From: a bacterium
GTDB taxonomy: Bacteria > JAMCPX01 > DATBWZ01
DNA length: 64,000 nucleotides
NCBI GenBank assembly: GCA_036514535.1
Contig: DATBWZ010000039.1
Coordinates: forward strand, 5,919-69,918
Direction of reading: 5' to 3'
This document shows positions 48,650 through 52,007 of this stretch, one piece after another. The notes below the pieces were generated by a model. That model was not told the DNA's origin. It saw nothing but the letters and a program-made list of their open reading frames with translations, and did no database searches. Within the stretch, counting starts at the first letter, position 1. Each line of letters begins with the position of its first letter. A program made the translations under genes and the position numbers.

Positions 48650-49681
48650 TTGCATAACTTGTTAAAGCGCGATTTTAAAAATTTCACATACAACGACCTT
48701 GAAAATTTTCTAAATTCAATTGGTGAAAAGCCTTACAGGGCGCACCAATTGTTTGATTGGGTATATAGAAAAAACATAAAATGTTTTTCAAAAATGACTA
48801 ATATTTCCAAAGAATTAAGAACGAAATTTAATGAATTACTTTTGATTTATGAACAGCCGGATTATGAAGAATTTTCCTCAGGAGATGGCACAAAAAAGTA
48901 TCGTATAAAACTTGAGAATAGAAATATTATTGAGTCGGTTTACATTCCGGAAACAAGAAGGGCAACCCTTTGTGTCTCCACTCAGTCGGGTTGCAATCTG
49001 GGATGCAGGTTCTGCCTTACAGGCAGGGGCGGCTTCAACAGAAACCTTACGGTTTCAGAAATGGTTGCGCAAGTTCTCCTTACGAAGGACAGTATTGCTG
49101 ATAAGAAACCACTAACGAACATTGTTCTTATGGGGATGGGCGAACCGCTTCTTAATTATGAAAATGTTGTTAAATTTATCAATATTCTTATAGATTCAAA
49201 AGGACTTGCTTTTGCAAAGAGAAAGGTCACTCTTTCAACAAGCGGAATACTGCCTGAACTGGATAATTTTATCAAGAATGTAGATGTTAGCCTTTCTATT
49301 TCGCTTAATGCTCCTGATGACGCAACCAGATCGTTAATTATGCCGGTTAACAAAAGGTTTAAACTTAAAGATATACTGGGAGTGGCAAGACAGTATCCTA
49401 AGGTTCGGAAAAGGATGGTCACTTTTGAATATGTGTTGATCAGCGGCATTAACGATTCGCCGGATCATGCGCATGAACTGGCTAAGCTGCTTAAAGGCAT
49501 ACGATGCAAAATCAACCTTATCCCATATAACGAAAACCCGTTTTGCGAATTTCGCAAGCCATCGGATAACGTCGTAGCTGAGTTCCATGATCTGCTTATG
49601 AAATACAATTACACTGCCACCATACGCAAATCCAGGGGGCAGGAGATCTCTGCATCCTGCGGGCAACTGGGAGTTTTTTGA
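48650..49681 (+). CDS. rlmN: 23S rRNA/tRNA m2A methyltransferase, radical SAM.
   Basis: Radical-SAM CNLGCRFC motif and C-terminal Cys. 343 aa. Confidence 0.9.
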   Translation: MHNLLKRDFKNFTYNDLENFLNSIGEKPYRAHQLFDWVYRKNIKCFSKMTNISKELRTKFNELLLIYEQPDYEEFSSGDGTKKYRIKLENRNIIESVYIPETRRATLCVSTQSGCNLGCRFCLTGRGGFNRNLTVSEMVAQVLLTKDSIADKKPLTNIVLMGMGEPLLNYENVVKFINILIDSKGLAFAKRKVTLSTSGILPELDNFIKNVDVSLSISLNAPDDATRSLIMPVNKRFKLKDILGVARQYPKVRKRMVTFEYVLISGINDSPDHAHELAKLLKGIRCKINLIPYNENPFCEFRKPSDNVVAEFHDLLMKYNYTATIRKSRGQEISASCGQLGVF

Positions 49682-49693
49682 TTTCAGGAAGAT

Positions 49694-50278
49694 TTATGCA
49701 ATATTTGAATATTTTTTAATAAATGCATTTAATCTGGGTTCAATATCCCATTCTTTTGCCCATTTTTTAAGATACGTTAAATTGAGGTTTTTAAAATTAT
49801 ATTGAAAAACATTTTCTACATCCTGGATGTCAATCGGCCGGTTCGCTATTAGTTTATGAACAATCAAATCTTCGGGCGAGATAACCGGAACTTCAATATT
49901 AAAAATTTTCAGCCACACCTTTCTCTTTAAAGTCTCTTCTTGATATGGAATATGCGCCAGCATAAGATCTATCCTGATTATTATCCCGCGTCGTTTTTTA
50001 GTAACTTGTATAAGATCAGGAGGTTTTGAAGGGCCAAGAAACCTTATTTCAAATCCATTATCCTTCAGGTTGCGGACGATTTCTTCTAAGTCCTTTTCCG
50101 AAATAAAAACAACTAAATCAATATCATCGGTTGCCCTTGATCTTCCCCAGGCTCCAGCCGCCAGTCCTCCGAGAATAGCGTAGTCAATATTTCGTTTTTC
50201 AAAGATTGATTTGAGATGTTTTAAACTCTCTATAAAAAAGAGAGTAAAATCATCTGTTATTTTTTCTCCATCTTTCAT
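49694..50278 (-). CDS. Nucleotidyltransferase-fold protein (MNT/AbiEii/DUF2204-like), 194 aa. Possible toxin-antitoxin or antiphage component.
   Basis: Pol-beta-type NTase motif GGLAAGAWGRSRATDDIDLVVF (G-x-R/S...DxD). Convergent with rlmN. Not a recognisable housekeeping enzyme. Confidence 0.55.
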   Translation of the reverse strand: MKDGEKITDDFTLFFIESLKHLKSIFEKRNIDYAILGGLAAGAWGRSRATDDIDLVVFISEKDLEEIVRNLKDNGFEIRFLGPSKPPDLIQVTKKRRGIIIRIDLMLAHIPYQEETLKRKVWLKIFNIEVPVISPEDLIVHKLIANRPIDIQDVENVFQYNFKNLNLTYLKKWAKEWDIEPRLNAFIKKYSNIA

Positions 50279-50456
50279 ATAGTGATAGTATAGTTAAAAT
50301 ATCCTTATCTCCAAACCTTTCGTTTTCCGTCACTATTTCATTCTTAGTTTTCCACATTTTTTTTCCACCGGCAAGATGTATTTCGTAGGAAATGCCGGAC
50401 AAACTGATTGTGTTTTCCATATTTTTTGAAGCTGCTTTTCTAACTTTTTCAAGCAT
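50250..50456 (-). CDS. Small hypothetical protein (68 aa) immediately upstream of, and overlapping, the NTase gene. Possible cognate partner.
   Basis: ORF only. 29-nt overlap with the NTase start. No motif recognised. Confidence 0.3.
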   Translation of the reverse strand: MLEKVRKAASKNMENTISLSGISYEIHLAGGKKMWKTKNEIVTENERFGDKDILTILSLYERWRKNNR

Positions 50457-50554
50457 TTATATTCATTGTATAACAAATATTAATCCATGTCATCATTATT
50501 TTAACTTGTGCAATTTGCTATAATCTGAATAAAATTATAATTATAATAACGCTT

Positions 50555-51742
50555 ATGGTTGATCTTTTTAAAATAATTACGGTATTGCTGGCAATAATAT
50601 TTCTTACAAAGCGAAAATGGAACCTCGGATTGGTTATGATTTTCTGTACGTTTCTGATCGCACTTTTTTATAAAATGTCGTTACATGATTTAGGTAGAAG
50701 TTTTATTGTTACATCTACGGATTTCAAAACTGTCAATTTAATCCTTGCTCTTACACTTATCAGAGGGTTTGAATACATCCTGAGAAAAAAAGGGGTGCTT
50801 GCGGGAATGATGGATACCCTGAAAGGGCTGCTGCGGGGAAGCAGGGCAGTGATCCCCGTGATGCCATCTCTGATAGGAATGCTTCCTTCTGTAGGGGGCG
50901 CTCTCTTTTCCGCTCCAATGGTGCAGGAAACCACTAAGAATTTGAAAATATCACCTGAAAAAAAGAGTTTTATAAATTACTGGTTCAGGCATCCATGGGA
51001 ATATATATTGCCTCTCTACCCGGGGATCATACTTGCTTCGGGAATAGCAGGTGTTTCGCTCAGGAAATTTATAATTGAAAATTCCCTTTATGCTTTGGGC
51101 ATGGTTGTGATTGGCTACATTCTAGGTCTAAGAAAAATAAAAATGGATAATAATTCTACGAATTCTTTTAATATAAACGGAGTTAAGAATTTTTTGCCGT
51201 TTATCACACTATTAATATTCGTTCTGGTATTGCATTTTGATCTTCTTACTGCGCTTATACTTGAACTGATACTGGTTTTTGTATTTTTGAGATCACCGTT
51301 CTCTGAAATCGCTGAGACAATAAAAAAATCTATCTCACTTGAAATAATCACACTTATTTTCGGTATCATTCTGTTTAAAACAACAATGGAAATCAGCGGA
51401 GCGGTGAAAAATCTCAGCATATTCTTTACTGCAAATCAGGTGCCATTAATGCTTCTTTTGTTCTTTTTACCGTTTATTACAGGGCTCCTGACAGGATTTA
51501 CAGTAGGCTTTGTAGGTTCTACTTTTCCGCTTTTGCTATCTCTGATAAAAGGTAATACCATGCACCATGTTGTGTTTGCGTTTTGCTCCGGATATGTTGG
51601 AGTTTTGTTATCGCCGGTACATTTATGTCTTGTGCTCACAAGGCAGTACTTTGATGCAGATATGTGGCGGGTTTATATGAGGATATTGCCGGCAGCTATG
51701 TTTGTGCTGGCTATAGCTACGCTTAGGTATCTGTTTCAGTAA
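50555..51742 (+). CDS. Polytopic integral membrane protein of unknown function (395 aa, ~10-12 TM helices).
   Basis: Hydrophobic segments throughout. Preceded by an extended -10 promoter-like TGcTATAAT at ~50516-50524. Confidence 0.6.
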   Translation: MVDLFKIITVLLAIIFLTKRKWNLGLVMIFCTFLIALFYKMSLHDLGRSFIVTSTDFKTVNLILALTLIRGFEYILRKKGVLAGMMDTLKGLLRGSRAVIPVMPSLIGMLPSVGGALFSAPMVQETTKNLKISPEKKSFINYWFRHPWEYILPLYPGIILASGIAGVSLRKFIIENSLYALGMVVIGYILGLRKIKMDNNSTNSFNINGVKNFLPFITLLIFVLVLHFDLLTALILELILVFVFLRSPFSEIAETIKKSISLEIITLIFGIILFKTTMEISGAVKNLSIFFTANQVPLMLLLFFLPFITGLLTGFTVGFVGSTFPLLLSLIKGNTMHHVVFAFCSGYVGVLLSPVHLCLVLTRQYFDADMWRVYMRILPAAMFVLAIATLRYLFQ

Positions 51743-51779
51743 AAGATATTTTAAAGTAAACACTGAAGATAAAATCAAA

Positions 51780-51851
51780 TAGGCACGGGCGGTCTCGAAC
51801 CGCCGGCCTCTTGCGTGTCGAGCAAGCGCTCCACCCCTGAGCTACGTGCCT
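51780..51851 (-). tRNA. tRNA-Val (anticodon GAC), with C rather than the canonical U at position 33.
   Basis: Hand-folded from the reverse complement. Acceptor AGGCACG/CGTGCCT, T8A9, D-stem GCTC/GAGC, anticodon stem CTTGC/GCAAG with loop TCGACAC, T-arm GGCGG-TTCGAGA-CCGCC. Coordinates ±2. Confidence 0.75.
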
Positions 51852-52007
51852 ATGTTGTTTTTTATAACACTACATTATAAGTTTGTCAAGGGAATGGGGT
51901 GGCCGGCGGCGCAGCGCTGTTATTCAACCCGATGATTTTCCGGCAACGCTTCTGATGCCGTTTTGATTGCATTGCGAACAGAATGCTTCTATGTTATATT
52001 TTAATCA

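What the first reader, a model, noticed from the sequence alone, without database searches (positions are those of the whole stretch)
49694..50456. Two-gene nucleotidyltransferase-fold module (68-aa ORF + 194-aa NTase) inserted against the grain between rlmN and a membrane protein
The 194-aa protein carries a minimal pol-beta-type NTase motif (GGLAAGAWGRSRATDDIDLVVF) typical of MNT/AbiEii/DUF2204-type toxin-antitoxin or abortive-infection proteins. It is preceded by a small overlapping ORF, is convergent with the housekeeping pdxJ-ndk-rlmN run and divergent from the next gene. This is the only clearly accessory-looking locus in the window. The partner is too short to be a canonical HEPN or AbiEi, so it may be a variant TA/defence pair.
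Basis: partly seen in the sequence, partly recalled or inferred. Interest (0 to 1): 0.55.

Follow-up and report, generated by a model that had tools for sequence, protein, structure and literature searches.

The report
MenAT1-like nucleotidyltransferase toxin–antitoxin pair
Two small overlapping genes between rlmN and a membrane-protein gene most likely form a toxin–antitoxin pair of a known type: an enzyme resembling the tuberculosis tRNA-modifying toxin MenT1, plus a 68-residue partner of an undescribed family.

Summary
The minus strand carries a 68-aa ORF (50250..50456) that overlaps a 194-aa ORF (49694..50278) by 29 nt.

- **Enzyme.** The 194-aa protein is a minimal pol-beta-fold nucleotidyltransferase (NTase). 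It passes the Pfam cut-offs for DUF6036, DUF2204 and AbiEii. Its closest solved relative, by sequence profile (E 4.6e-14) and by predicted fold (TM about 0.7), is the M. tuberculosis tRNA-modifying toxin MenT1. All MenT1 catalytic residues are kept.
- **Partner.** The 68-aa ORF is a real gene. Every NTase homologue with upstream sequence has a 66–73-aa ORF overlapping it by 25–29 nt. Most substitutions fall at third codon positions. In six loci a TTGnnn-17-TATAAT promoter ends 6–9 nt before its ATG, which suggests a leaderless mRNA.
- **Mobility and decay.** The pair sits in at least five unrelated gene neighbourhoods. In some lineages the NTase has been deleted or frameshifted while the small gene survives.
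- **Relation to MenA1.** The partner has the size, position and predicted long N-terminal helix of the antitoxin MenA1. No sequence or fold similarity to it was detectable, and the family has only three clusters among 1.84 billion representative proteins.

Verdict: a new member of the known MenAT/AbiE-type NTase toxin–antitoxin kind, with an orphan antitoxin family. Interest is modest. Toxicity, neutralisation and the tRNA target are inferred, not shown.

The parts
50465..50493 (-). Sigma-70-type promoter-like site: ATGACA, 17-nt spacer, TACAAT. The -10 box ends 8 nt before the ATG of the small ORF, which implies a leaderless or nearly leaderless bicistronic mRNA.
   Evidence: 10 of 12 matches. 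The count of such sites in this region is not above chance on its own. However, the same TTGnnn-17-TATAAT arrangement ends 6-9 nt before the small-ORF start in L001, L002, L004, L005 and L010, where the flanking sequence is otherwise unrelated.
50250..50456 (-). 68-aa basic (pI 9.75) all-helical protein, the putative antitoxin. Predicted helices span residues 2-33, 38-48 and 50-67.
   Evidence: conserved partner; invariant L19, I22, H27, K32, E44, E46, D52, Y60, E61, W63, R64. (coding substitution pattern). (AF2 pLDDT 75). (pI). No hit in Pfam, NCBIfam, PADLOC or PHROGs.
50250..50278 (-). 29-nt overlap of the two ORFs. The NTase ATG lies inside the codons for ...Y-E-R-W-R... of the small ORF, and no Shine-Dalgarno sequence is visible. 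Translational coupling is likely.
   Evidence: An overlap of 25-29 nt is conserved in all eight loci examined.
49694..50278 (-). 194-aa minimal pol-beta-fold nucleotidyltransferase, MenT1-like, the putative toxin.
   Evidence: Pfam. (profile against PDB: MenT1 8an4/8an5/8rr5, E 4.6e-14). (AF2 pLDDT 90.2, pTM 0.85). (top Foldseek hits are MenT1 chains, E 1e-11, TM 0.66-0.70).
50117..50170 (-). Codons for G37-D54 (GGLAAGAWGRSRATDDID): the hG[GS] motif, T50 (equivalent to the MenT1 phospho-acceptor T39) and metal-binding D52-x-D54 (equivalent to MenT1 D41/D43).
   Evidence: with residue identities checked. MenT1 residue roles are taken from PMC10435456 and PMC11375011.
49967..49969 (-). Codon for D104, the invariant third acidic residue of the NTase active site (IRIDLML).
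   Evidence: invariant column.
49820..49855 (-). Codons for K142-D153 (KLIANRPIDIQD): the C-terminal-domain K...D motif, equivalent to the MenT1 catalytic residues K137 and D152.
   Evidence: alignment (the chain index equals the paper numbering minus 1). Residue identities checked.

Best explanation
The locus is a two-gene toxin-antitoxin module of the MenAT/AbiE nucleotidyltransferase kind, closest in architecture to MenAT1 of M. tuberculosis. Proposed mechanism, with shown and inferred steps marked.

1. Both genes are transcribed from one sigma-70-type promoter as a leaderless bicistronic mRNA. The promoter position is shown and conserved; the transcription start is inferred.
2. The 68-aa helical protein is translated first, and the overlapping NTase ORF is translationally coupled to it (inferred from the conserved 25-29 nt overlap and the lack of a Shine-Dalgarno sequence).
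3. The free 194-aa NTase would add nucleotides to the 3'-CCA ends of tRNAs, blocking aminoacylation and translation and arresting growth. This is inferred from homology to MenT1 and from conservation of T50, D52, D54, D104, K142 and D153.
4. The small protein neutralises the NTase by laying its long N-terminal helix across the active-site face, and possibly by triggering auto-phosphorylation of T50, as MenA1 does to MenT1 T39 (inferred by analogy only).

The biological role is probably that of a mobile addiction or stress module, or an abortive-infection module. This is not established.
For: - **NTase homology.** Pfam DUF6036, DUF2204 and AbiEii are all above gathering score. The family profile hits MenT1 at E 4.6e-14, and the next hit (5uvd) is at 2.2e-7. 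A high-confidence model (pLDDT 90) has the MenT1 chains as its top five Foldseek hits (E 1e-11 to 5e-10, TM up to 0.70). These rank ahead of LnuA, TM1012 and ANT(2'').
- **Catalytic residues.** MenT1 T39/D41/D43/K137/D152 align with T50/D52/D54/K142/D153. The phospho-acceptor position is T in 11 of 12 family members and S in the twelfth. The hydrophobic pocket residues of MenT1 that receive MenA1 (L8/L120/L123) align with L19/F126/I128.
- **Partner.** It has the same length as MenA1 (68 aa; PMC10435456) and the same upstream position. It has a predicted 32-residue N-terminal helix followed by shorter helices; MenA1 has a 32-residue alpha1 plus a shorter alpha2. It is conserved with the NTase in all loci and evolves as a coding sequence.
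- **Module behaviour.** The promoter is conserved. There are at least five distinct neighbourhoods: rlmN|DUF401, gcvT|gcvH, beside a MwoI-like restriction-modification system, and two others.
- **Decay pattern typical of toxin-antitoxin loci.** The NTase is cut at residue 140, losing K142/D153, with the small ORF intact in L010, L011 and L022. It is frameshifted in L009. Its catalytic core is deleted in L021.
Against: - No experiment was done. Toxicity, neutralisation and the tRNA target all rest on homology at about 19% structural-alignment identity.
- The best Pfam family is DUF6036, which has no known function and no literature. The AbiEii score (24.0) only just passes its cut-off (22.5).
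- PADLOC AbiEii is weak (E 1.9e-4 over 49 residues).
- The MenT1 residues F28 and F38, which matter for MenA1 binding, are L39 and A49 here.
- No complex prediction could be run.
- No compositional sign of recent acquisition was seen, and no sister genome lacking the pair could be found.
Confidence: 0.68

Rival explanations
1. The NTase is a non-toxic DUF6036/DUF2204-type enzyme, for example one that modifies a small molecule, a protein or an RNA for a physiological purpose. The 68-aa protein would then be a cofactor, regulator or substrate rather than an antitoxin.
For: The best-scoring Pfam families are DUF6036 and DUF2204, whose functions are unknown. There is no literature on them. The partner has no similarity to any known antitoxin.
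Against: The closest characterised relative, by two independent methods, is a proven toxin, and every catalytic residue is conserved. The tight overlapping two-gene operon, the varied gene neighbourhoods and the repeated loss of the NTase with retention of the small gene are typical toxin-antitoxin behaviour.
Confidence: 0.17
2. The NTase is an antibiotic-modifying nucleotidyltransferase of the lincosamide Lnu or aminoglycoside ANT(2'') type, and the upstream ORF is incidental.
For: LnuA and ANT(2'')-Ia appear among the fold hits (E 3e-7 to 7e-5, TM about 0.5). There is a weak Pfam Aminoglyc_resit hit (E 0.018) and weak Lnu sequence hits (E about 0.08).
Against: The Aminoglyc_resit score (15.6) is below its gathering score (21). 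MenT1 scores 4-6 orders of magnitude better in both sequence and fold searches. The strictly conserved overlapping partner gene is not a feature of Lnu or ANT genes. There is no resistance-gene or mobile-element context.
Confidence: 0.05
3. The roles are reversed, as in MNT-HEPN-like systems: the NTase is the antitoxin, which nucleotidylates or sequesters the small protein, and the small protein is the toxin.
For: In MNT-HEPN systems a minimal NTase is the antitoxin (established knowledge). The small protein is basic (pI 9.75) and so could bind nucleic acid.
Against: The small protein has no Rx4-6H HEPN motif (read directly from the sequence) and no HEPN hit. It is encoded first, the usual antitoxin position. 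The lineages that lost the NTase kept the small gene, which would be lethal if the small protein were the toxin. The NTase also carries the C-terminal K...D domain of MenT/AbiEii toxins, not the approximately 100-130-aa MNT layout.
Confidence: 0.04

Closest known systems
MenAT1 (Rv0078B-Rv0078A) of Mycobacterium tuberculosis (PDB 8AN4, 8AN5, 8RR5; PMC10435456, PMC11375011)
   Same: A 68-aa upstream protein without a DNA-binding domain is followed by a roughly 195-aa minimal NTase. MenT1 is the best hit for the NTase by sequence profile (E 4.6e-14) and by fold (TM about 0.7). The catalytic residues T, D-x-D, K and D are conserved, including the phospho-acceptor T. The partner is predicted to have a 32-residue N-terminal helix plus shorter C-terminal helices, like MenA1.
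   Different: The partner has no detectable sequence or fold relation to MenA1. It is basic and belongs to a tiny orphan family of three clusters among 1.84 billion representatives. The MenA1-contact residues F28/F38 of MenT1 are not conserved (L39/A49). The genes overlap by 29 nt. The best Pfam family is DUF6036 rather than AbiEii. The host is an uncultivated low-GC bacterium, not an actinobacterium.
AbiE (AbiEi-AbiEii) type IV toxin-antitoxin / abortive-infection systems, and MenAT3/MenAT4
   Same: The NTase toxin belongs to the DUF1814/AbiEii superfamily (Pfam PF08843 above its cut-off), and the antitoxin gene lies upstream in the same operon.
   Different: AbiEi, MenA3 and MenA4 antitoxins are COG5340 winged-helix proteins several times larger (PMC10435456). 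AbiEii, MenT3 and MenT4 are larger NTases and do not appear among the top 50 fold hits.
MNT-HEPN (MntA-HepT) toxin-antitoxin systems
   Same: A minimal pol-beta NTase is paired with a small partner in a two-gene operon.
   Different: In those systems the NTase is the antitoxin and the partner is a HEPN RNase with an Rx4-6H motif. Here there is no HEPN hit and no such motif, and the NTase has the MenT-type C-terminal helical domain.
Pfam DUF6036 / DUF2204 nucleotidyltransferases of unknown function
   Same: These are the best-scoring Pfam families for the 194-aa protein (35.1 and 31.2 bits).
   Different: These families carry no functional annotation or literature. This locus links one small subfamily of them to a MenT1-like toxin-antitoxin architecture.

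Membership tests
MenT/AbiEii (DUF1814, PF08843) NTase toxins | Match to the family HMM above its curated cut-off | tested here: met
   PF08843 scores 24.0 bits against a cut-off of 22.5 (E 4.4e-5). This is marginal, and DUF6036 (35.1) and DUF2204 (31.2) score higher. A MenT1 fragment itself scores 35.6 bits on PF08843.
MenT/AbiEii (DUF1814, PF08843) NTase toxins | Catalytic residues: hG[GS], S/T-x-D-x-D, a third acidic residue, and a C-terminal-domain K and D (MenT1 T39, D41, D43, K137, D152) | tested here: met
   G37-G38, T50, D52, D54, D104, K142 and D153 align with the MenT1 residues.
MenT/AbiEii (DUF1814, PF08843) NTase toxins | Bi-lobed fold: a beta-sheet NTase domain plus a C-terminal four-helix bundle | tested here: met
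   The AF2 model (pLDDT 90.2) has strands and helices up to residue 132, then four helices at 135-191. The top Foldseek hits are MenT1 chains, TM 0.66-0.70.
MenT/AbiEii (DUF1814, PF08843) NTase toxins | Growth inhibition through nucleotide addition to tRNA 3' ends | not testable with these tools
   Needs expression and biochemical assays.
MenAT1-type pair | A short (about 68-aa) antitoxin gene without a DNA-binding domain, immediately upstream in the same operon | tested here: met
   A 68-aa ORF with a 29-nt overlap and no domain hit. It is conserved in all related loci.
MenAT1-type pair | The antitoxin is homologous to MenA1 (Rv0078B) | tested here: not met
MenAT1-type pair | Toxin:antitoxin:toxin heterotrimer and antitoxin-induced auto-phosphorylation of the active-site Thr | not testable with these tools
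   No multimer prediction was available. Only the acceptor residue (T50) is shown to be conserved.
AbiE (AbiEi-AbiEii) | AbiEi/COG5340 winged-helix antitoxin partner | tested here: not met
   The partner is 68 aa and all-helical, with no Pfam, NCBIfam or PADLOC hit.
MNT-HEPN | HEPN-domain partner with an Rx4-6H motif | tested here: not met
   No HEPN hit, and no R-x(4-6)-H in the 68-aa sequence (read directly).
Antibiotic NTases (Lnu, ANT(2'')) | Match to the family HMM above its cut-off | tested here: not met
   PF10706 Aminoglyc_resit scores 15.6 bits against a cut-off of 21. Lnu sequences hit at E about 0.08.

The most novel reading that the evidence does not exclude
The 68-aa basic helical protein founds a new antitoxin family that is evolutionarily unrelated to MenA1. 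On this reading it has converged on the same solution: a long helix laid across the active-site face of a minimal MenT1-like tRNA nucleotidyltransferase, perhaps also triggering T50 auto-phosphorylation. It would be expressed from a conserved leaderless promoter. That would extend the MenAT1 mode of control beyond actinobacteria, and it would give the uncharacterised DUF6036 family its first functional assignment.
Probability: 0.4. Interest if true: 0.4.

Novelty: new member of a known kind. Interest (0 to 1): 0.3.

Why it matters
If the assignment is confirmed, three things follow. It would give a functional handle (tRNA-targeting toxin) to one branch of the uncharacterised DUF6036/DUF2204 nucleotidyltransferases. 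It would show that the MenAT1 layout, a minimal NTase toxin plus a roughly 68-residue helical antitoxin, occurs outside mycobacteria in uncultivated low-GC bacteria. It would also add a new, sequence-unrelated antitoxin family for testing whether antitoxin-induced auto-phosphorylation is a general way of controlling NTase toxins. It does not open a new category of system.

Tried and rejected
- **Sister-genome presence/absence at rlmN|DUF401.** Scans of genome contigs and metagenome contigs with RlmN found only 37-45% identical relatives, so the test could not be done.
- **More family members.** A scan of metagenome contigs and viral contigs with the NTase alignment found none.
- **Phage or plasmid carriage.** There was no phage hit. 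The one weak plasmid hit is a 291-aa fused protein in Nostoc, whose N-terminal part is unrelated to the small protein.
- **Structure prediction with locus-derived sequences.** It was redone after a profile search brought the partner sequences into the session.
- **Programmed frameshift fusing the two ORFs.** The A6 run in the overlap is present only in the window copy and not in the homologues. Rejected.
- **Terminal repeats, terminators or compositional island.** No convincing flanking repeats, no terminator and no GC anomaly beyond the AT-rich promoter spacer.
- **Full MenA1 sequence.** It could not be obtained. Only residues 1-24 were rebuilt from published primers, enough to confirm that chain 8an5_C is in the library.

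Full report
**Observation.** The minus strand between rlmN (48650..49681, +) and a DUF401/TIGR00529 membrane-protein gene (50555..51742, +) carries two ORFs. One is 68 aa (50250..50456) and the other is 194 aa (49694..50278), and they overlap by 29 nt. The NTase stop codon lies 12 nt from the rlmN stop codon. Apart from tRNA-Val(GAC) at 51779-51852, the pair is the only minus-strand feature in a plus-strand run of genes from 33426 to 63953. The coordinates and the quoted motif are correct.

**The 194-aa protein.**
- Pfam places it in the pol-beta NTase clan. DUF6036 scores 35.1 bits, DUF2204 31.2 and AbiEii 24.0, all above their gathering scores. NTP_transf_5, Polbeta, NTP_transf_2 and Aminoglyc_resit fall below theirs.
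- PADLOC gives only a weak AbiEii match, and NCBIfam gives nothing.
- Homologues are rare: 12 clusters in a 5.8-billion-protein collection, at 26-66% identity.
- A profile of these sequences hits one characterised protein far better than anything else in the PDB. That protein is MenT1 (Rv0078A) of M. tuberculosis (8an4, 8an5, 8rr5), at E 4.6e-14.
- An AlphaFold2 model is confident (pLDDT 90.2, pTM 0.85). It shows a beta-sheet NTase lobe followed by four C-terminal helices.
- Foldseek against the PDB puts the five MenT1 chains first (E 1e-11 to 5e-10, TM up to 0.70). They rank ahead of a fungal NTase-like antigen, LnuA, TM1012 and ANT(2'').
- In the HMM alignment, the MenT1 residues that the literature shows to be catalytic all have identical counterparts. 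T39, D41, D43, K137 and D152 (PMC10435456) correspond to T50, D52, D54, K142 and D153 here. D104 is the invariant third acidic residue.
- T39 of MenT1 is the residue auto-phosphorylated under MenA1 control (PMC11375011). The equivalent position is T in 11 family members and S in the twelfth.

**The 68-aa ORF is a real gene.**
- A word-based search found only the ORF itself. Looking up the contigs that encode each NTase homologue gave a different picture. Every contig with upstream sequence has a 66-73-aa ORF overlapping the NTase start by 25-29 nt.
- These ORFs are 38-58% identical to the window's, with 11 invariant positions.
- Among the five ungapped copies, substitutions by codon position are 126, 103 and 263. 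The annotated frame is the only one open in all five.
- The partner of the most distant NTase (L012, 42% identity) is only marginally similar (hhalign E 0.01, in register). Fast divergence of this kind is expected for an antitoxin.
- The protein is basic (pI 9.75). It is predicted to be all-helical, with helices at 2-33, 38-48 and 50-67 (pLDDT 75).

**Expression signals.**
- A promoter-like site, ATGACA-17-TACAAT, ends 8 nt before the ATG of the small ORF. On its own this is not above chance.
- In L001, L002, L004, L005 and L010, however, a TTGnnn-17-TA(T/A)(A/G)AT arrangement ends 6-9 nt before the start codon. It often has a TGn extended -10 element, and the sequence further upstream is unrelated between loci.
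- This placement implies a leaderless or nearly leaderless transcript (inference).
- Neither ORF has a visible Shine-Dalgarno sequence. The NTase ATG is embedded in the conserved ...YE(K/R)WR... codons of the small ORF, which suggests translational coupling (inference).

**Behaviour as a module.**
- The pair occurs in several neighbourhoods: between rlmN and DUF401 (window); between gcvT and gcvH (L002, L003, L004, L010, L011, L022); beside MwoI-like restriction-modification genes (L001); and in further, unrelated neighbourhoods (L005, L009/L021, L012).
- In L010, L011 and L022 a deletion ends the NTase at residue 140, removing K142 and D153, while the small ORF is intact.
- In L009 the NTase is frameshifted near residue 159.
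- In the syntenic L021 the catalytic GG...DxD segment is deleted, stop codons have accumulated, and the small ORF has also acquired an N-terminal stop.
- Loss of the enzyme first, with retention of the small gene, is what one expects if the enzyme is the toxin and the small protein its antidote (inference).

**Comparison with known systems.**
- MenAT1 consists of a 68-aa antitoxin without a DNA-binding domain, encoded upstream of the minimal NTase toxin MenT1. MenT1 adds nucleotides, mostly CMP, to tRNA acceptor ends.
- MenA1 has a long alpha1 helix (residues 1-32 suffice for antitoxicity) and a shorter alpha2. It bridges two MenT1 protomers across their active-site faces (PMC10435456). It also induces auto-phosphorylation of T39 (PMC11375011).
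- The window pair matches MenAT1 in gene order, in both protein sizes, in the toxin fold and catalytic residues, and in the predicted helix pattern of the partner.
- It differs in the partner's sequence. The small-protein profile does not hit the MenA1 chain 8an5_C even at E<=10, and I confirmed that chain is in the library.
- An exhaustive HMM search of 1.84 billion representatives finds only three clusters of the family. It also finds one unrelated repeat protein.
- MenT1 F28 and F38, which matter for MenA1 binding, are L39 and A49 here. The hydrophobic pocket residues L8/L120/L123 remain hydrophobic (L19/F126/I128).
- The literature already notes that MenA antitoxins are diverse and mutually unrelated. 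An unrelated partner therefore does not take the locus outside the known kind.

**Rivals.**
- A non-toxic DUF6036 enzyme with a small cofactor cannot be excluded without experiments. I put this at about 0.17.
- An antibiotic NTase is unlikely, because the family HMM is below its cut-off and such genes have no conserved partner.
- A reversed MNT-HEPN-like arrangement is contradicted by the absence of a HEPN motif. It is also contradicted by lineages that keep the small gene after losing the NTase.

**What could not be done.**
- No close sister genome exists in the collections (best RlmN identity 45%). Insertion at this junction is therefore untested, and GC content gives no sign of recent transfer.
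- No multimer prediction was available.
- There is no evidence for phage or plasmid carriage.

**Verdict.** The locus is best described as a divergent MenAT1-like nucleotidyltransferase toxin-antitoxin pair with an undescribed antitoxin family. It is a new member of a known kind and of modest interest (0.3).

Noticed in passing
window 51779-51852 (-): tRNA-Val(GAC) lies between the DUF401 gene and mutL (52008..). With the NTase pair it is the only minus-strand feature in the plus-strand gene run 33426-63953. tRNA genes are common integration sites, but no repeats or integrase were seen nearby.
   Followed up: partly
window 50555-51742 (+): The DUF401 membrane protein matches TIGR00529 (AF0261 family) at 225.8 bits, well below that model's curated cut-off of 378.4. 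It is therefore a divergent member of that family. It is not linked to the NTase pair in any other locus.
   Followed up: partly
P0020 (1156 aa): An unrelated large protein carries 8 tandem repeats, 'INLSNISSMLNGTGAKAPETLQKL...', that match positions 14-33 of the small-protein profile (E 1e-8). It also has a SET-like C-terminal region. This may be a shared short helical motif or a chance match.
   Followed up: no
L002 3270-4726; L004 2089-4469; L010 4710-5971; L022 3710-4971: In one uncultivated lineage the gcvT|gcvH spacer is a variable hot spot. It holds the NTase pair plus different small accessory genes: an SMR/Multi_Drug_Res gene, DUF2283, and unannotated 34-90-aa ORFs.
   Followed up: partly
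L001 1255-3622: Here the pair lies beside a restriction-modification system (a MwoI_N-domain endonuclease plus an N6_N4 methyltransferase). This neighbourhood would fit a defence island.
   Followed up: no
L010 5001-5423, L011, L022; L009 2384-2957; L021 3960-4603: These loci form a decay series. The NTase is truncated by deletion at residue 140 (three contigs), frameshifted near residue 159 (L009), or has lost its catalytic core and gained stop codons (L021, 85-87% nt identical to L009). The small ORF is intact in all except L021.
   Followed up: yes
window 50471-50487 (-) and the equivalent promoter spacers in L001, L002, L004, L010: A T(C/T)AATT(A/G)TTT element inside the 17-nt promoter spacer is conserved between loci. 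It could be an operator for an unknown regulator. MenAT1 itself does not autoregulate (PMC11375011).
   Followed up: no
L020 2195-3070 (Nostoc sp. TCL26-01 plasmid NZ_CP040298.1): A 291-aa hypothetical protein has a DUF6036-like C-terminal part (28% identity to the window NTase) fused to an unrelated N-terminal extension of about 100 aa. It lies immediately upstream of a site-specific integrase.
   Followed up: partly
window 50255-50262 (-): An A6 run (GAGAAAAAATAA) lies inside the 29-nt overlap. It could look like a slippery site, but it is absent from all homologous loci, so a programmed frameshift is unlikely.
   Followed up: yes
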